Translations under genes and position numbers: made by a program
Shown here: piece by piece, positions 3,522 to 31,610 of the stretch
Position numbering within the stretch: the stretch's first letter is position 1
How the letters are laid out: every line of letters starts with the position of its first letter
Notes under the pieces: model-generated
What the model saw: only the letters and a program-made list of their open reading frames with translations
Told to the model about the DNA's origin: nothing
Databases searched by the model: none
Assembly: GCF_030680185.1 (NCBI RefSeq)
Contig: NZ_JAUXVZ010000039.1
Location: 3,466 to 67,465 of the forward strand
Origin: Phenylobacterium sp.
GTDB lineage: Bacteria > Pseudomonadota > Alphaproteobacteria > Caulobacterales > Caulobacteraceae
Length of the DNA: 64,000 nt
Reading direction: 5' to 3'

Positions 3522-4058
3522 TCAAGGCGCCGTAACGGCGCCCTGCAGCGGGGCCTGATCGCCGTTATCGCCCCGCAGGCGCTTGAGCAGCAGCCGGCGG
3601 GGATCGACTGGCCCTGGCATCACCACGCCGGCCGTAGGTTCGGCCGAAAAGCCCAGCCGGCCGAAGAAGGGCGGATCGCCCACCAGCAGCACCTCGGAAA
3701 AGCCTGCGGCGGCGGCGGCCGCACACGCGACCTCCACCAGCCGGGCGCCGGCCCCGAGGCGCCGCGCCGCGGCGTCCACAGCCAGCGGCCCCAGGAAGAT
3801 CAGCCGGCGGCCGCCGACGGCGATCTCGGACTGGCGCACCACGCCTACGAGGCGCGCGCCCTCCCAGGCGCAGAAGGACAGGTCGGTTCGCAGGGGGGCG
3901 ATCTCTCGCACCCGCTCCGACGCCTTCACAAAGCGGCCAGGACCAAAGGCGTGATCCAGCAGGGCATCGATGGCGGGGCCATCTGCGGGGGTTTCGGCGC
4001 GAATATCGGGGGCGGGACTCGGGACGGAGTCCGCAAGGGGAACGAAGGCGGCGGTCAT
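3522..4058 (-). CDS. GNAT N-acetyltransferase (YhbS-like)
   Basis: LGPLAVD...RRLGAGARLV acetyl-CoA motif, LLVGDPPFFGRLGF; start MTAAFVP at 4058. Confidence 0.85.
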   Translation of the reverse strand: MTAAFVPLADSVPSPAPDIRAETPADGPAIDALLDHAFGPGRFVKASERVREIAPLRTDLSFCAWEGARLVGVVRQSEIAVGGRRLIFLGPLAVDAAARRLGAGARLVEVACAAAAAAGFSEVLLVGDPPFFGRLGFSAEPTAGVVMPGPVDPRRLLLKRLRGDNGDQAPLQGAVTAP

Positions 4059-4312
4059 GGGCGAACTTTGCGGCGAACTTTGCAGGCTGCGAGACAGACG
4101 AACCCGGCCCGCAGCATCGGCGGCGCCAGGCGGCTCTAGAGGACGCGGATCTCGCGCCCGGTTCGTCGCAGCGCACGCATGGCGCCCCTCGCGGTCAGCC
4201 CTGGCGATCATGTCGCCGGAAGCGCGCCCGATAAGGCCCCTGCGCCCCAAGGTCAATCGAAACCGAATCGGCCGTTGCGAGGGGCCCGCGCTCAGGTCAA
4301 GTTGCGCCGCCC

Positions 4313-5581
4313 ATGTCCCAGTCCCCTCCCGAGTCGCCGGCGTCAGACCCCCTCCCCTCCGCCCGCGCTCTGCTGAGCCAGCGGAGCTATCTGCTGTTCT
4401 GGGGCTCGCGCTGGGCCAGTTCGATCGGCGTGCAGGTCCAGAGCGTGGCGCTTGGCTGGCAGATCTACGAGCTGGCGCGGCGGACCATGAGCGTCGCCGA
4501 GGCCGCCTTCGTGGTCGGCATGGTGGGCCTGGTGACCTTCATTCCGGTCTTCCTGCTGACCCTGCCGGCCGGCGAGGCCGTGGACCGCTATGACCGGCGC
4601 AAGATCCTACTGGCCTGCTACGCCGTCGAGATGACCAGCGCGGGCATCCTGGCCGTCGCCACCTGGCGGGACGTCGCCTCGGTGCCGCTGCTGCTGTGCG
4701 TGGCCGCCGTGTTCGGCGCGGGACGGGCCTTCATGTCGCCGGCCGGCACGGCGCTCGGCCCCATGCTGGTGCCCCGCAGCCTGCTGCCCCGGGCCATCGC
4801 CTGGAATTCACTGGCCTGGCAGACCGCCGCCATTGCAGGCCCGGCCATCGGCGGCCTGCTGCTGGCCCGCTCGACGGCGCTGGCCTACGAGACCGCCTTC
4901 TGCCTCTACGTCGCCGGCGCGACCCTCACCTTCTTCATCAACGGCCGCACCAAGCCCGACCTGCAGCCGGGCTCGCGCCTCGCCCTGATCAAGGAGGGTC
5001 TGGTCTATGTGTGGCGCCAGAAGATCGTCTTCGGCGCCATATCGCTGGACCTGTTCGCCGTGCTGCTGGGCGGGGCCACGGCCCTGCTGCCGGTCTTCGC
5101 CCGCGACATCCTGCATGTGGGCGAGGAGGGCTTTGGCCTGTTGCGCGCCGCGCCGGCCATGGGGGCGACGCTCATCGCCCTGGTGCTGGCGGCCCGCCCC
5201 ATTCGCTCCAATGCGGGGGTCACCATGTTCGCCGGGGTCGCGGTCTTTGGCCTGGCGACCATCGTCTTTGGGATCTCGCGCTCGCTCTGGCTGTCGGTGG
5301 CGGCGCTGGCCATCCTGGGCGGCGCCGACATGCTCAGCGTCTATGTGCGCCAGACCCTGATCCAGCTGGTCATTCCCGACAATATGCGCGGCCGGGTGGC
5401 GGCGGTTTCAACCCTGTTCATCGGCGCGTCCAACGAACTGGGCGAGTTCCGCGCCGGGGTCTTCGCCCGTTTCATGGGGGTGGTGGCGGCCGCCGTGGTC
5501 GGCGGCGTGGGCACGTTGATCGTCACCGGCCTTTGGGCCAAGTTCTTTCCCGACTTGCGCAAGGCTGACCGCCTCGAATAA
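4313..5581 (+). CDS. MFS transporter (EntS/DHA3-like)
   Basis: About 12 hydrophobic segments; GEAVDRYDRRKI motif A; SLDLFAVLLGGATALLP; PDNMRGRV. Confidence 0.88.
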   Translation: MSQSPPESPASDPLPSARALLSQRSYLLFWGSRWASSIGVQVQSVALGWQIYELARRTMSVAEAAFVVGMVGLVTFIPVFLLTLPAGEAVDRYDRRKILLACYAVEMTSAGILAVATWRDVASVPLLLCVAAVFGAGRAFMSPAGTALGPMLVPRSLLPRAIAWNSLAWQTAAIAGPAIGGLLLARSTALAYETAFCLYVAGATLTFFINGRTKPDLQPGSRLALIKEGLVYVWRQKIVFGAISLDLFAVLLGGATALLPVFARDILHVGEEGFGLLRAAPAMGATLIALVLAARPIRSNAGVTMFAGVAVFGLATIVFGISRSLWLSVAALAILGGADMLSVYVRQTLIQLVIPDNMRGRVAAVSTLFIGASNELGEFRAGVFARFMGVVAAAVVGGVGTLIVTGLWAKFFPDLRKADRLE

Positions 5582-27893: not shown

Positions 27894-27997
27894 GGCTGGA
27901 CCGGGGTTCGCCGACCGGCGGCTCTTGACCTTCCGCCTTCGGCCCCGGCGAATGGCCGCTGGGACGTGTTGGCGTGAACAGGGGCTTGGCCGCGGTC

Positions 27998-29776
27998 ATG
28001 CAGCCAGGGGAAAAGCGTAGGTCGGCGGTGGGGACCGCATCCGGCGGGCCGGGGGCCGAGCGCCTTCTGGCCTCGATCGACCGCGTGTCCCCCGACGCCG
28101 CGGCGGCCGGGGCGCCCCTGTCCCTGCCTGCCCAGGCCCTGGCGAGCGCGGCCTTCACGCGTTCCGGCCGATTGATCCTCGCCGATCCGGTCTTCACGCA
28201 GACCTTTGGCTCCGACCTCCAGCCGGCCCCGCCCGCGGTGGGGGCCTGGCGGCTGTCGGCGGAGCCATGTCTGGACGGGGACACGGCCGTCGTGCTGGTC
28301 GCAGCGCCGCTGGCGGCCCGCCGCTGGCCCCTGTCGCCGGCCATCGCCGCCGCTGGGGAGGGTGAAGCCGGGTTGATCGTGCTGACCTACCGTCCCTTCG
28401 CCCATCCAAGCCTGGTCCAGCGGGCCTGCGACGGCTGGCGGCTGACGTCCCTGGAAGGCCGGGTGGTCGCGGCGCTGCTGGGACGCGACAACCTCAGGGC
28501 CGCCGCCCGCTCCGCCGGCGTAGCCTACGAAACCGCCCGGGAGGCGATCGCCTCAGCCCTGCGAAAGGCCGGCGCCCGACGGCAGGCCGATCTGGTGCGC
28601 CGGCTGCACATGGCGGTGGGGCTGGGGGATTTCGACCTGGCCGAGACCGGCCTGCTCGCCCAGGCGCTCGGCCTGTCTCAACGCCAGGCCGGCGTCGGCC
28701 GGCTGGTGGCCATGGGTCTGACGCGGCCGGAGATCGCCGCCACCCTGCAGGTCAGCGAGCATGTGGTGAAGGCCGAGCTCAAGCGGCTGTTCGAGGTGCT
28801 GGGCGTGCGCACAGCCGGCGCCCTGAGCGAGGTGGTGGTCCAGGCCTCGGTCCTGCTGGCGGTAGCCGGCGCCGACAACCTCGCCCATGCGGCCCAGGCC
28901 GACGAACTGAGGCCCCTGCGCCTGCTCGCCCGACCGGACGGGGGCGGACGTATCGCCCTGTCGGACTATGGCCCGGCCAGCGGCGCGCCCACCTTCCTCA
29001 TGCACAGCGCGCTGACGGGCAGTCTGATCGATCGCGGCCTGATCGGCGCCCTGCAGCGGCGGGGGCTCCGACCTATCGCCATCGAGCGTCCGGGTTTTGG
29101 CCTCACCGATCCGCCCCAGGGCGAGGGCGAGGTCGGCGCCCAGCGCGCAGCGGCCGACATGGCCCTGGTGGCCGGCGCGCTCAGGCTGAAGTCGGTCCGC
29201 CTGCTGTGCCGCGGCGGCGAGGCCGCCGCCCTGGCCTTCGCCGAGACCTATCCGCAACTGTTCGCCGGCGGCGTCCTGCTCAATCCCTTTCGACCCTATG
29301 AGGTCGACACCCGCTGGGACGGACTGATGAACATGGCCAAGCGGATGATCTCCGCCCAGCCGCAGCTGATCGAACCGATCGCCGCCTTCCTGGTCCGGCG
29401 CGCCAGCCCGAAGTCCATGGCCGGTATCGTGCGCGAGGCGGTCAAGGCGAGCCCGGCCGACCTCGCCGCCCTGGAGGACCCGAGGGTCCTGGCCGACTAT
29501 GTGGCCTCGGCCCGTCTGGCCGCCCTGGCCACCCCCTGGGGCTTTATCCAGGAGCAGAGCGGCTATATCGGCTGGCGCCCGCCGACCCTGGCCGATGGCC
29601 GGTCCTGGACGCGGATGGTCGGCGAGCAGGACGTGCTCTACCTCCCGGGCGAAGGCGATGAGGTGTGGGACACGGCCCTGCCTGGCCACCAGGTGATCCG
29701 GGTCCCGGAGGCCGGGCGCCTGATCCACGCCTCCCACCCCGAAATCGTCGCCGCAGCGACCGCGGCCCTGGTCTGA
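27998..29776 (+). CDS. Two LuxR-type HTH domains fused to a degenerate alpha/beta hydrolase fold
   Basis: HTH1 LTSLEGRVV..ETAREAI..RRQADLV; HTH2 LSQRQAGV..GLTRPEIA; hydrolase ERPGFGLTD; start uncertain (27974 or 27998). Confidence 0.8.
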   Translation: MQPGEKRRSAVGTASGGPGAERLLASIDRVSPDAAAAGAPLSLPAQALASAAFTRSGRLILADPVFTQTFGSDLQPAPPAVGAWRLSAEPCLDGDTAVVLVAAPLAARRWPLSPAIAAAGEGEAGLIVLTYRPFAHPSLVQRACDGWRLTSLEGRVVAALLGRDNLRAAARSAGVAYETAREAIASALRKAGARRQADLVRRLHMAVGLGDFDLAETGLLAQALGLSQRQAGVGRLVAMGLTRPEIAATLQVSEHVVKAELKRLFEVLGVRTAGALSEVVVQASVLLAVAGADNLAHAAQADELRPLRLLARPDGGGRIALSDYGPASGAPTFLMHSALTGSLIDRGLIGALQRRGLRPIAIERPGFGLTDPPQGEGEVGAQRAAADMALVAGALRLKSVRLLCRGGEAAALAFAETYPQLFAGGVLLNPFRPYEVDTRWDGLMNMAKRMISAQPQLIEPIAAFLVRRASPKSMAGIVREAVKASPADLAALEDPRVLADYVASARLAALATPWGFIQEQSGYIGWRPPTLADGRSWTRMVGEQDVLYLPGEGDEVWDTALPGHQVIRVPEAGRLIHASHPEIVAAATAALV

Positions 29777-29832
29777 CACACCCCCCAACCGGGGATACCG
29801 GGCGGGGTTAACGGGCGACATCGTCGCCCATC

Positions 29833-30429
29833 ATGACGCACCAGCCCCAGGCCCCCTGGCCCCACATCCCCATCTCCGCCGCCTGGGCGTTGGCCCCGCC
29901 GCTGACCCAGACCAGCAGCGCCATGCTTGTGGTCGATGGCGGCGATCGGGTTCTGGGCGGCAATCCCGCGGGCGTCGCCCAGTTTGGCGCCTTGCTGGGC
30001 GCCATCGAGGGCGACCGCCTCGCCTTCCGGGACGCCGCCTGTGCGGAGGCCCTGGCCACGGCGCGGCGGCGTCTGCGGCAGGATCGCATCCACGAAGTCA
30101 TCGTACGGTTCGACGCCGACGCCGGTGGGCCACTCTTCGCCCTTCTGTCCGGCGGCGGCGACAGCTACGCCCTTCTTCTGCCCCCGCCCGCACGAACCGA
30201 GGCCTTGGCTAGCGCTCTGATAAGCAGCTTTGGTCTGACCCGGGCGGAGACCCGTCTGGCGCTGAAGCTCCAGGGTGGCCTGAGCCTGGCCGAATGCGGC
30301 CGCGACCTGGACATCTCGGTCAACACGGCCCGCAATCAGCTCCGCGCCATCTTCGAAAAGCTCGGCCTGCGCCGCCAGAGCGAACTCGCCCGAACCCTGG
30401 CGCAGCTGGCGGCTCTGGCGAACGGATGA
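29833..30429 (+). CDS. LuxR-type HTH regulator with a PAS-like N-terminus
   Basis: FGLTRAETRLALKL..GLSLAEC..ISVNTARNQLRAIFEKLGLRRQSEL. Confidence 0.85.
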   Translation: MTHQPQAPWPHIPISAAWALAPPLTQTSSAMLVVDGGDRVLGGNPAGVAQFGALLGAIEGDRLAFRDAACAEALATARRRLRQDRIHEVIVRFDADAGGPLFALLSGGGDSYALLLPPPARTEALASALISSFGLTRAETRLALKLQGGLSLAECGRDLDISVNTARNQLRAIFEKLGLRRQSELARTLAQLAALANG

Positions 30430-30439
30430 GGCCGGCGCC

Positions 30440-31610
<1,171 letters not shown>

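What the first reader, a model, noticed from the sequence alone, without database searches (positions are those of the whole stretch)
27998..29776. Double LuxR-HTH protein fused to an apparently catalytically dead alpha/beta hydrolase
Seen: two successive LuxR-like HTHs followed by a recognisable hydrolase fold (YGPASGAPTFLMHS, ERPGFGLTD). Aligned by eye to G-x-S-x-G-G-x-x-A-L-x-x-A, the nucleophile elbow reads L-C-R-G-G-E, with Arg at the Ser position. The C-terminal 'aGH' His motif reads AGRL, also Arg. Established: hydrolase folds serve as small-molecule receptors (plant GID1/KAI2/D14, Bacillus RsbQ). Inference: a one-component regulator in which a pseudo-hydrolase pocket binds an anionic ligand (two Args in the pocket) and two HTHs read a bipartite operator.
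Basis: partly seen in the sequence, partly recalled or inferred. Interest (0 to 1): 0.72.

Follow-up and report, generated by a model that had tools for sequence, protein, structure and literature searches.

The report
Gene regulator with dead hydrolase domain
This gene encodes a DNA-binding regulator with two DNA-reading heads fused to an enzyme-like domain that has lost its catalytic residues but is still conserved; the family is widespread in Alphaproteobacteria and unstudied, and the dead domain probably acts as a sensor or switch.

Summary
ORF 27974..29776 (+, 600 aa) encodes a PAS-like N-domain, two homologous LuxR/GerE HTH domains in tandem, and a C-terminal alpha/beta-hydrolase fold with a large lid (AlphaFold2 pLDDT 88.5; best solved match TM 0.80).

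No catalytic triad is present. The catalytic His position is Arg582 and the acid Asp553 is kept. One detail needs correcting. In 202 relatives the elbow is one residue shorter than normal. Arg413 (191/202) corresponds to the residue before the nucleophile, the Q of C-Q-D-W-G-G in haloalkane dehalogenases. About one in six relatives still read R-D-G-G but lack both His and the acid. No member examined has a full triad, and Cys412 is not conserved.

The dead domain evolves under purifying selection as strong as that on the HTHs (dN/dS 0.15 against 0.14-0.17).

The family has at least 150 full-length clusters. All named genomes are Alphaproteobacteria (Caulobacterales, Sphingomonadales, a few Rhodospirillales), often with paralogues and with no conserved neighbour. 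A sister family with one HTH occurs in the same genome.

The best reading is a one-component regulator whose pseudo-hydrolase is a non-catalytic sensing or allosteric module. The anionic-ligand idea and the bipartite operator remain untested.

The parts
27974..29776 (+). Whole gene: 600-aa PAS-like / HTH / HTH / pseudo-alpha/beta-hydrolase regulator. GTG start; an alternative ATG lies at 27998.
   Evidence: ORF list and translation. Full-length homologues. dN/dS 0.19 against orthologue L001.
27894..27973 (+). Upstream intergenic region with blocks conserved in four orthologues: GGGTTCGCCGA, CTTGACCT, GCGAATG and GGGACGTGTTGGCGTG. Probably the gene's own promoter and ribosome-binding site.
   Evidence: Alignments of four orthologous loci. 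The sigma-70 consensus scan found nothing, so the promoter call is inference.
28109..28438 (+). N-terminal PAS-like alpha/beta domain (residues 46-155).
   Evidence: AlphaFold2 gives five strands plus helices. The N-terminal half matches VqmA, EL222 and TraR best (PAS or ligand domain plus LuxR HTH), Foldseek probability 0.95 but E about 0.01. No Pfam hit. Least conserved domain: only W118 reaches 90%; dN/dS 0.28.
28442..28606 (+). HTH1, a divergent LuxR/GerE-type four-helix DNA-binding domain (residues 157-211). Recognition helix reads Y-E-T-A-R189.
   Evidence: No Pfam hit. 35% identity to the neighbour's HTH. hhalign to HTH2: 98.8%, E 6e-17. Helices 159-214 in the model. T187, A188 and R189 are at least 90% conserved in A1.
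28661..28843 (+). HTH2, a LuxR/GerE HTH (residues 230-290). Recognition helix reads S-E-H-V-V-K266.
   Evidence: Pfam GerE 27.1 bits when scanned alone. Matches the EL222 HTH in PDB. K266 is at least 90% conserved.
28880..29773 (+). C-terminal alpha/beta-hydrolase-fold domain (residues 303-600), closest in sequence to HLD-I haloalkane dehalogenases, without a catalytic triad.
29204..29221 (+). Shortened nucleophile elbow L-C-R413-G-G-E. The nucleophile residue is deleted and Arg413 is nearly invariant.
   Evidence: R413 in 191/202 members. 156/202 have no residue between R413 and G414 (153/187 of those with Arg413); 35 have Asp and 2 have Glu there. Alignments to CQDWGG and GWSGGG enzymes place R413 one residue before the nucleophile. 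Strand 408-412, coil 413-415, helix from 416.
29309..29593 (+). Lid (cap) domain of about 95 aa and six predicted helices. Carries the near-invariant D496.
   Evidence: Secondary structure. D496 in 200/202. Lowest dN/dS of the protein, 0.11.
29630..29632 (+). Asp553 at the canonical catalytic-acid position, three residues after strand beta7.
   Evidence: Profile alignments to 6f9o and 9wlv. Strand 545-550. D in 89% of the R-G-G subfamily, replaced mostly by Gly in the R-D-G-G subfamily.
29711..29722 (+). A-G-R582-L: Arg at the catalytic His position.
   Evidence: Aligned to the catalytic GH of haloalkane dehalogenases and of 9wlv. R in 90% of the main subfamily and Leu or other hydrophobic residues in the minor one. 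His588, six residues later, is present in 173/202.
29833..30429 (+). Adjacent small regulator P0002 (198 aa; PAS-like plus one LuxR HTH), 56 bp downstream. Possibly co-transcribed.
   Evidence: Its position is kept only in close orthologues (L001, L002). 45% identical to the N-terminal half of the in-genome paralogue P0058.

Best explanation
The gene encodes a cytoplasmic one-component transcription regulator of a conserved, unstudied alphaproteobacterial family. Its domain order is a PAS-like N-domain, LuxR-type HTH1, LuxR-type HTH2, and an alpha/beta-hydrolase-fold domain with a large lid.

The hydrolase domain descends from an Asp-nucleophile enzyme of the haloalkane-dehalogenase (HLD-I) kind and has lost catalysis:
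- the nucleophile is deleted;
- the catalytic His is replaced by Arg582;
- the HG oxyanion motif reads HS.

The domain is nevertheless kept under purifying selection as strong as that on the DNA-binding domains. I therefore read it as a non-catalytic regulatory module. Most probably the remodelled former active site and the lid bind a small molecule. Alternatively the domain holds the protein in one conformation. Either way it would control how the two HTHs engage DNA. The two HTHs lie in one chain and both keep the basic DNA-contact residue (R189, K266), so they probably bind two adjacent half-sites.

Shown: the architecture, the fold, the loss of the triad, the selection and the distribution. 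Inferred: ligand binding, allosteric coupling and the operator layout.
For: **Architecture and fold**
- Domain calls and structure models.

**Loss of the triad, family-wide**
- R413 in 191/202 members.
- No residue at the nucleophile position in 156/202.
- In the main subfamily (153 members): R582 in 90%, D553 in 89%, S345 in 76%.
- Alignment to a bona fide HLD-I-like enzyme of the same genome (LFCQDWGG...GAGH) puts R413 opposite Q and R582 opposite the catalytic His.

**Evidence that the former active site is still selected**
- The four catalytic-site positions switch together between two subfamilies. One reads HS / nucleophile deleted / Asp acid / Arg. The other reads HG / Asp nucleophile / Gly / Leu. 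Each state is conserved within its subfamily.

**Selection**
- dN/dS is 0.15 for the hydrolase domain, 0.11 for the lid, 0.135 and 0.166 for the HTHs, and 0.28 for the PAS-like domain.
- 15 of the 24 positions that are at least 90% conserved lie in the first core segment of the hydrolase domain (residues 300-445).

**Family size and spread**
- 429 representatives at E<=1e-30, with at least 150 full-length.
- 126 loci in GTDB genomes; those with informative names are all Alphaproteobacteria.
- Several paralogues per genome.
Against: - No ligand, operator or regulon was identified.
- I could not read model coordinates, so it is not shown that R413, R582, D553, H588 and D496 line one cavity.
- In canonical elbows the side chain before the nucleophile points away from the pocket (my own knowledge). 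Arg413 may therefore be structural.
- Arg582 may only form a salt bridge with Asp553.
- The PAS-like domain could be the real sensor, as in VqmA or EL222.
- No neighbouring gene is conserved in 80 loci, so context gives no functional clue.
Confidence: 0.6

Rival explanations
1. The pseudo-hydrolase is a structural or oligomerisation scaffold, or an intramolecular partner that stabilises the active HTH conformation, without binding any small molecule. Sensing, if any, is done by the PAS-like N-domain. The closest analogy is the activation of the LuxR-type RhlR by PqsE, which does not need PqsE catalysis. Neuroligin-type dead esterases used for protein contacts are another analogy.
For: - The N-terminal half resembles the PAS/LOV-LuxR sensors VqmA and EL222.
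- The high pTM of 0.88 for the whole chain suggests fixed inter-domain packing.
- The RhlR-PqsE complex 8dq0 appears among the fold hits of the N-terminal half.
- Many of the invariant residues are generic fold motifs: D-x-G-P, H344, R-P-G-F-G and D395.
Against: - The PAS-like domain is the least conserved part, with one position at 90% or more and dN/dS 0.28.
- A 95-aa lid with the lowest dN/dS (0.11) and the near-invariant D496 is kept. A pure scaffold would not need this.
- The coordinated switch of all four catalytic-site positions between subfamilies points to selection on the site itself.
Confidence: 0.25
2. The domain is still an enzyme with an unconventional catalytic set, for example Ser/Thr587-His588 or Asp496. 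The protein would then be a bifunctional enzyme-regulator that processes its signal, as D14, KAI2 and RsbQ do.
For: - His588 (173/202), Ser/Thr587 (181/202) and Asp496 (200/202) are conserved.
- The receptor-hydrolases D14, KAI2 and RsbQ do hydrolyse their ligands (abstract of bioRxiv 10.1101/2023.12.05.570042, listed).
Against: - No Ser, Cys or Asp sits at the elbow in 156/202 members.
- In the main subfamily (153 members) the oxyanion HG motif reads HS in 76% and the general base position is Arg in 90%.
- Position 587 is Thr in 80 of 202 members, and Thr is a poor nucleophile in this fold.
- No member examined combines a nucleophile, a His and an acid.
Confidence: 0.07
3. The hydrolase domain is a decaying remnant of a gene fusion with no function of its own.
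For: - The catalytic residues are lost.
- Pfam scores lie below the gathering threshold.
Against: - dN/dS is 0.15 across the domain.
- Reading frames are intact in 37 of 38 matches in the Caulobacteraceae genomes searched; one carries a TGA.
- 20 of the 24 positions that are at least 90% conserved lie in this domain.
- The fold is predicted with high confidence.
Confidence: 0.03

Closest known systems
Haloalkane dehalogenases of subfamily HLD-I (e.g. DccA of Caulobacter crescentus, PDB 5esr; DpcA, 6f9o; DmrA, 4mj3) and the HLD-I-like enzyme in the same genome (L008)
   Same: - They are the closest sequence relatives of the C-terminal domain: E 1e-5 for the single sequence and 1e-16 for the family profile.
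- They share the motifs D-E/Y-G-P, H-G/S and P-G-F-G-x-S/T-D, a Cys two residues before the nucleophile, and the G-x-x-D acid loop.
- A minority of the family still carries R-D-G-G, i.e. an Asp at the nucleophile position.
   Different: - The nucleophile Asp and the halide-binding Trp (D-W) are replaced by a single Gly.
- The catalytic His is Arg.
- The lid is larger.
- The domain is fused behind two HTHs.
- It is not a member: the defining triad was tested and is absent.
Alpha/beta-hydrolase receptors: plant D14/KAI2, Bacillus subtilis RsbQ (partner of the PAS-phosphatase RsbP), and the non-catalytic gibberellin receptor GID1
   Same: - A hydrolase fold is used for signal perception.
- RsbQ works with a PAS-domain protein, and here a PAS-like domain and a hydrolase fold lie in one chain.
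- GID1 is, like this domain, catalytically inactive through loss of the His (my own knowledge).
   Different: - D14, KAI2 and RsbQ keep an intact Ser-His-Asp triad and hydrolyse butenolides (bioRxiv 10.1101/2023.12.05.570042, abstract).
- None of them is fused to a DNA-binding domain.
- The present domain is HLD-like, not RsbQ-like, in sequence.
- The resemblance is functional only, and ligand binding here is unproven.
PAS/LOV-LuxR one-component regulators: VqmA (Vibrio cholerae, DPO receptor; PDB 6ide, 6ugl) and EL222 (Erythrobacter litoralis; 3p7n, 8a5r)
   Same: - The N-terminal half (PAS-like domain followed by a LuxR HTH) gives these as the best fold matches.
- EL222's HTH is the best solved sequence match of HTH2.
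   Different: - The fold match is weak: E about 0.01, TM 0.2-0.3.
- Those proteins end at the single HTH and bind DNA as dimers.
- Here a second HTH and a 300-aa pseudo-enzyme follow, so the HTHs are internal. This is unusual for the LuxR C-terminal family.
Sister family in the same genome (P0058; G000 contig C59; 560 aa): PAS-like, one LuxR HTH, dead alpha/beta-hydrolase
   Same: - It is homologous over HTH2 plus the hydrolase domain: hhalign probability 100%, E 1.4e-42.
- It also lacks a nucleophile; its elbow reads A-F-M-N-G, A-I-L-S-G and similar.
- It is found mainly in the same organisms, chiefly Phenylobacterium, with 183 clusters.
   Different: - It has only one HTH.
- The elbow has normal length, with Met, Leu or Thr at the nucleophile position.
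- The catalytic His and Asp are mostly retained.
- It has no Arg before the nucleophile position.
RhlR-PqsE of Pseudomonas aeruginosa (PDB 8dq0)
   Same: An enzyme-fold protein controls a LuxR-type regulator independently of its own catalysis (my own knowledge). This is a model for a scaffold or allosteric role of the dead domain.
   Different: - PqsE has a metallo-beta-lactamase fold.
- It is a separate polypeptide.
- It is still an active thioesterase.

Membership tests
LuxR/GerE (LuxR C-terminal type) HTH, Pfam PF00196 | Sequence match to the GerE profile above the gathering score | tested here: met
   HTH2 scores 27.1 bits when scanned alone against a cut-off of 23.5, and 22.5 bits in the full protein. 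HTH1 has no direct hit, but its profile matches HTH2 at 98.8%, E 6e-17, and it shares 35% identity with the neighbour's HTH.
LuxR/GerE (LuxR C-terminal type) HTH, Pfam PF00196 | Four-helix bundle with a basic residue in the recognition helix (the position of NarL K188; my own knowledge) | tested here: met
   The model shows four helices for each HTH. R189 in HTH1 and K266 in HTH2 are at least 90% conserved in A1. Foldseek gives target TM 0.83-0.88 to the NarL, LiaR and VraR DNA-binding domains.
LuxR/GerE (LuxR C-terminal type) HTH, Pfam PF00196 | Sequence-specific DNA binding | not testable with these tools
   No operator was identified. The palindrome at 29813-29829 is only a lead.
Alpha/beta-hydrolase fold superfamily | Eight-stranded sheet flanked by helices, with the strand-elbow-helix motif | tested here: met
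   AlphaFold2 pLDDT 88.5. Foldseek gives target TM 0.80 and rmsd 3.4 A to 9wlv, with 1040 matches at E<=0.001. Profile E 1e-16.
Catalytically active alpha/beta-hydrolases | Nucleophile (Ser, Cys or Asp) at the elbow in sm-x-Nu-x-sm | tested here: not met
   The elbow reads C-R-G-G-E. The nucleophile residue is absent in 156/202 relatives. Cys412 is not conserved: Ala in 108, Cys in 17.
Catalytically active alpha/beta-hydrolases | Catalytic His after strand beta8 | tested here: not met
   Arg582 aligns with the catalytic His of 6f9o, 9wlv and the in-genome HLD. Family-wide the position is Arg in 152/202 and His in 5/202.
Catalytically active alpha/beta-hydrolases | Catalytic acid after strand beta7 | tested here: met
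   Asp553 lies three residues after strand 545-550. It is present in 151/202 members.
Haloalkane dehalogenase subfamily HLD-I | Asp nucleophile followed by a halide-binding Trp (D-W), plus His and Asp | tested here: not met
   NCBIfam haloalkane dehalogenase scores 34 bits against a cut-off of 265. D-W is replaced by Gly and His by Arg.
RsbQ/D14/KAI2 receptor-hydrolases | Intact Ser-His-Asp triad and closest sequence relationship to RsbQ/KAI2 | tested here: not met
   The triad is absent. No RsbQ, D14 or KAI2 entry appears in the 60 listed sequence hits or the 50 listed fold hits.
PAS-LuxR sensors (VqmA/EL222 type) | PAS fold directly N-terminal to a LuxR HTH | tested here: inconclusive
   The model shows a five-stranded alpha/beta domain. 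The best fold hits are VqmA and EL222 with probability 0.91-0.96, but E about 0.01 and TM 0.2-0.3. No Pfam PAS hit.

The most novel reading that the evidence does not exclude
The family may be a new class of bacterial small-molecule receptor. In this reading, a haloalkane-dehalogenase-derived pocket has its nucleophile excised and its His replaced by Arg, and it binds an anionic metabolite. The precedent is the Arg pair that holds the carboxylate in fluoroacetate dehalogenase (my own knowledge). Ligand binding would directly gate an intramolecular pair of LuxR HTHs, so that a single chain reads a two-half-site operator without needing to dimerise. The R-D-G-G subfamily would be a second specificity class of the same receptor.
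Probability: 0.25. Interest if true: 0.75.

Novelty: new variant of a known kind. Interest (0 to 1): 0.5.

Why it matters
One-component regulators are the main way bacteria sense chemicals. I know of no characterised bacterial transcription factor that uses an alpha/beta-hydrolase fold as its input domain, and four literature searches found none. The known hydrolase-fold receptors (D14, KAI2, GID1, RsbQ) are all stand-alone proteins.

Here the fusion to DNA-binding domains makes the regulatory role of a dead hydrolase nearly unavoidable. The family-wide pattern names the residues to mutate: an invariant Arg before a deleted nucleophile, Arg for His, and a minority subfamily with Asp kept but His and the acid lost.

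The family and its one-HTH sister family are numerous in Caulobacterales and Sphingomonadales. Databases label them only 'alpha/beta fold hydrolase', which will mislead metabolic annotation. The tandem LuxR HTH is also a rarely discussed way of building a DNA-reading pair inside one chain.

Tried and rejected
1. **Cys412 as an alternative nucleophile.** Rejected. The position is Ala in 108/202 members and Cys in 17.
2. **Arg413 as a direct replacement of Ser.** Rejected as stated. All alignments to enzymes, to the R-D-G-G subfamily and to the sister family place a one-residue gap at the nucleophile and put Arg413 one residue before it.
3. **Conserved gene neighbourhood.** ORFs in 80 loci with 4-kb flanks were clustered. 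No neighbour recurs in more than 10 loci. The rnhB-gene-P0002-ccrM order is kept only in close orthologues. A divergent PEP-CTERM protein lies upstream in three related loci (L004/L005 and L031) but not generally.
4. **Operator search.** A perfect 7-3-7 palindrome lies at 29813-29829. It is only partly kept in orthologues. Its genome-wide excess (43 against 10 control sites at up to 1 mismatch) is probably due to GGC-GAC / GTC-GCC codon usage. I did not accept it as an operator.
5. **Sigma-70 promoter and terminator scan.** Nothing was found.
6. **Literature.** Four searches found no paper on a LuxR-hydrolase fusion regulator.
8. **Residue-level geometry of the pocket.** Not possible, because model coordinates are not exposed to me.
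9. **The BLAST pairing of G-E-G-D561 with the HLD acid.** Rejected in favour of D553, which follows strand beta7 in the model and in the profile alignments.
Full report
**1. The gene.**
The finding lies in one ORF, 27974..29776 on the + strand, which gives 600 aa from a GTG start. The 24 bases between the two starts are identical in the orthologues, so the start cannot be decided.

The flanking genes, by Pfam labels on the syntenic orthologous locus L001, are:
- upstream, on the same strand: a CAF17/YgfZ-like gene, a DNA-3-methyladenine glycosylase (Adenine_glyco) and RNase HII;
- downstream: a 198-aa LuxR-type protein (P0002, 29833..30429), an N6/N4 DNA methyltransferase (362 aa; I call it ccrM from its size, domain content and position, on my own knowledge) and, on the opposite strand, a MutY-like glycosylase.

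Names attached to homologues place the organism in or near Phenylobacterium, family Caulobacteraceae. A 422-aa ORF on the opposite strand (28553..29821) is most likely one of the long spurious frames expected in 72-75% G+C DNA; I did not test it.

**2.
- Every quoted motif is present at verified coordinates.
- HTH2 (residues 230-290) passes the Pfam GerE threshold when scanned alone: 27.1 bits against a cut-off of 23.5.
- HTH1 (157-211) is too divergent for Pfam. It is 35% identical to the HTH of P0002.
- The family profile of HTH1 matches the family profile of HTH2 at 98.8% probability, E 6e-17.
- Both HTHs keep the basic residue of the recognition helix, R189 and K266.
- The C-terminal 300 residues are an alpha/beta-hydrolase fold. 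The family profile gives E 1e-16 to a haloalkane dehalogenase.
- The AlphaFold2 model has pLDDT 88.5 and pTM 0.88. Foldseek gives target TM 0.80 to 9wlv, followed by dehalogenases, epoxide hydrolases and esterases.

**3.
Residues 46-155 form a five-stranded alpha/beta domain. A separate model of residues 25-300 has pLDDT 92.6. Its best matches are VqmA, EL222 and TraR, i.e. a PAS or ligand-binding domain followed by a LuxR HTH. Scores are weak (probability about 0.95, E about 0.01). The architecture is therefore PAS-like / HTH1 / HTH2 / hydrolase fold, with both HTHs internal.

**4. The catalytic positions.**
*His.* Arg582 aligns with the catalytic His in every comparison. It matches GGH of 6f9o, GH of 9wlv and GAGH of an HLD-I-like enzyme encoded in the same genome. 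It lies five residues after strand 573-577.

*Acid.* Asp553 lies three residues after strand 545-550 and aligns with the acid of 6f9o and 9wlv.

*Nucleophile.* The elbow is one residue shorter than normal.
- Counted from the conserved Pro of helix C, Arg413 is 14 residues upstream, exactly like the nucleophile.
- Counted from strand beta5, Arg413 aligns with the residue before the nucleophile. That residue is Q in LFCQDWGG, W in GWSGGG and F in the sister family's A-F-M-N-G. The gap falls on the nucleophile itself.

The family settles the matter. Among 202 relatives, 191 have Arg at position 413. Of those, 153 have nothing between Arg413 and Gly414, and 34 have Asp or Glu there (R-D-G-G, a normal-length elbow with an Asp nucleophile). 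So Arg413 is the conserved pre-nucleophile residue and the Asp was deleted.

The model puts strand 408-412, coil 413-415 and helix from 416. This is compatible with a shortened turn. I had no coordinates, so I cannot say which residue sits at the apex.

**5. Two subfamilies, both dead.**

| Position | Main subfamily (153 sequences, includes this gene) | Minor subfamily (34 sequences) |
|---|---|---|
| Oxyanion motif | H-S, 76% | H-G, 94% |
| Nucleophile | deleted | Asp or Glu kept |
| Acid (553) | Asp, 89% | Gly (47%) or other |
| His position (582) | Arg, 90% | Leu (41%) or other, mostly hydrophobic |

No sequence examined combines a nucleophile, a His and an acid. R413, D496, G523, E527, W565, G581 and H588 are conserved in both subfamilies.

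All four classic active-site positions change together, and each state is then conserved. I take this as evidence that the former active site is still under selection.

**6. The dead domain is functional.**
Measured against the 83%-identical orthologue in L001, dN/dS values are:
- hydrolase domain 0.15
- lid 0.11
- HTH1 0.135
- HTH2 0.166
- PAS-like domain 0.28

Of the 24 positions that are at least 90% conserved among 172 near-full-length members, 15 lie in the first core segment of the hydrolase domain (residues 300-445) and 20 in the domain as a whole.

**7. Family and distribution.**
- A profile search of 1.84 billion cluster representatives gives 429 proteins at E<=1e-30. The best 150 are mostly full-length, 540-650 aa.
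- A scan of one genome per GTDB species gives 126 loci. The 80 kept loci whose names are informative are all Alphaproteobacteria: Phenylobacterium, Caulobacter, Hyphomonadaceae, Terricaulis, Sphingomonas, Polymorphobacter, Sandarakinorhabdus, Sphingorhabdus, Erythrobacter, Azospirillaceae and Caenispirillum.
- Within the organism's own family, 23 of 201 genomes and 6 of 27 genera have it, with up to four copies and some adjacent copies.
- Across the class, only 2 of 301 evenly drawn genomes have it.
- Database names are only 'alpha/beta fold hydrolase' or JGI's 'pimeloyl-ACP methyl ester carboxylesterase/DNA-binding CsgD family transcriptional regulator'.
- NCBIfam has no specific model.

**8. 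Relatives in the same genome.**
- P0058 (contig C59, 560 aa) has a PAS-like domain, one LuxR HTH and a hydrolase domain. It is homologous to HTH2 plus the hydrolase domain of this protein (E 1.4e-42). Its family has at least 183 clusters. It also lacks a nucleophile (A-F-M-N-G, A-I-L-S-G and similar) but mostly keeps GH and the Asp.
- P0002, the downstream neighbour, is 45% identical to the N-terminal half of P0058 and has no hydrolase domain.
- Contig C25 encodes a canonical HLD-I-like enzyme with CQDWGG and GAGH.

**9. Context gives no function.**
The rnhB-gene-P0002-ccrM order is kept in the close orthologues, but more distant members sit in unrelated places. Clustering of all flanking ORFs in 80 loci finds no recurrent partner.

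The upstream 80 bp carries conserved blocks, including CTTGACCT and GCGAATG. These probably form the gene's own promoter, but a sigma-70 consensus scan found nothing.

A perfect palindrome, GGGCGAC-ATC-GTCGCCC, lies 3 bases before the P0002 start (29813-29829). It is partly kept in orthologues, with one G-C to C-G exchange. Its genomic excess of 43 against 10 control sites is plausibly codon bias, so it stays a lead.

**10. Mechanism.**
I commit to a one-component regulator in which the pseudo-hydrolase is a non-catalytic control module for the two HTHs. Ligand binding in the remodelled site under the lid is the most probable mode. The combined confidence of 0.6 covers the non-catalytic-module reading; pocket-ligand binding specifically I put at about 0.4-0.45, and an anionic ligand at about 0.2.

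The main rival is a scaffold or allosteric role with sensing by the PAS-like domain (0.25). A cryptic enzyme (0.07) and a decaying remnant (0.03) are unlikely.

That two HTHs in one chain read two adjacent half-sites is an inference from the normal dimeric use of GerE domains. It was not tested.

**11. Comparison with known systems.**
- It works most like the hydrolase-fold receptors GID1, D14, KAI2 and RsbQ. It is not a member of their families: there is no triad, and its sequence is HLD-like.
- It is not a haloalkane dehalogenase, because the defining residues were tested and are absent.
- Each HTH is a member of the LuxR/GerE family.
- I found no paper on such a fusion.
- Earlier notes of this scan report other LuxR-hydrolase fusions with dead triads in other genomes. 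This agrees with my finding of the sister family and suggests a broad, unstudied theme. Those notes are unchecked AI leads and I do not count them as evidence.

**12. Verdict.**
This is a new variant of a known kind: a LuxR-type one-component regulator with an unusual pseudo-enzyme input domain and a duplicated HTH. Interest is 0.5. The anatomy is clear and testable and the family is large and unannotated, but there is no ligand, operator or regulon yet.

Noticed in passing
window 29833-30429 (+): A small regulator, P0002 (198 aa; PAS-like domain plus one LuxR HTH), lies 56 bp downstream of the finding and 92 bp upstream of ccrM. It is 45% identical to the N-terminal half of the hydrolase-fused paralogue P0058, i.e. 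a hydrolase-less version of that family. Its position is conserved only in close orthologues.
   Followed up: partly
window 29813-29829: A perfect 7-3-7 palindrome, GGGCGAC-ATC-GTCGCCC, ends 3 bases before the P0002 start codon. Orthologues keep a similar hairpin or palindrome with one G-C to C-G exchange and a bulge. The genome holds 43 sites at up to 1 mismatch against 10 for the reversed control, possibly because of codon bias. It could be an operator, an RNA hairpin or chance; this is undecided.
   Followed up: partly
L007 955-2637 (G000 contig C59, about 92717-94399): A paralogous family occurs in the same genome (P0058, 560 aa): PAS-like domain, a single LuxR HTH and an alpha/beta-hydrolase. 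Its elbow reads A-F-M-N-G, with no nucleophile, but GH and the Asp are retained. At least 183 homologue clusters exist, mostly Phenylobacterium.
   Followed up: partly
L008 1114-2013 (-) (G000 contig C25): A canonical-looking HLD-I haloalkane dehalogenase homologue (299 aa; LFCQDWGG, GELDPV, GAGHFIQED) is encoded in the same genome. It served as an internal yardstick for the triad positions.
   Followed up: partly
window 30440-30454: TTAA-N7-TTCA lies in the 92-bp region upstream of ccrM. It is a near match to the CtrA box TTAA-N7-TTAA known from the Caulobacter ccrM promoter (my own knowledge).
   Followed up: no
G411:C19:1838-3535 and 3548-5326; G499:C5:105063-106856 and 108337-110121: Some Caulobacteraceae genomes carry two family members next to or near each other on the same strand (a gap of about 12 bases in G411, about 1.5 kb in G499). 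Others have up to four copies per genome. The family expands by local duplication.
   Followed up: no
L004 4952-5611 (-), L005 3718-4377 (-), L031 4104-4808 (-): In three related loci a 219-234-aa protein with a PEP-CTERM sorting signal is transcribed divergently from the regulator, with intergenic gaps of about 190-390 bp. It is a possible target gene in those lineages. It is absent from the window.
   Followed up: partly
window 28553-29821 (-): A 422-aa open frame lies on the opposite strand and overlaps the gene. It is most likely one of the long spurious frames expected in 72-75% G+C DNA. I ran no search on it.
   Followed up: no
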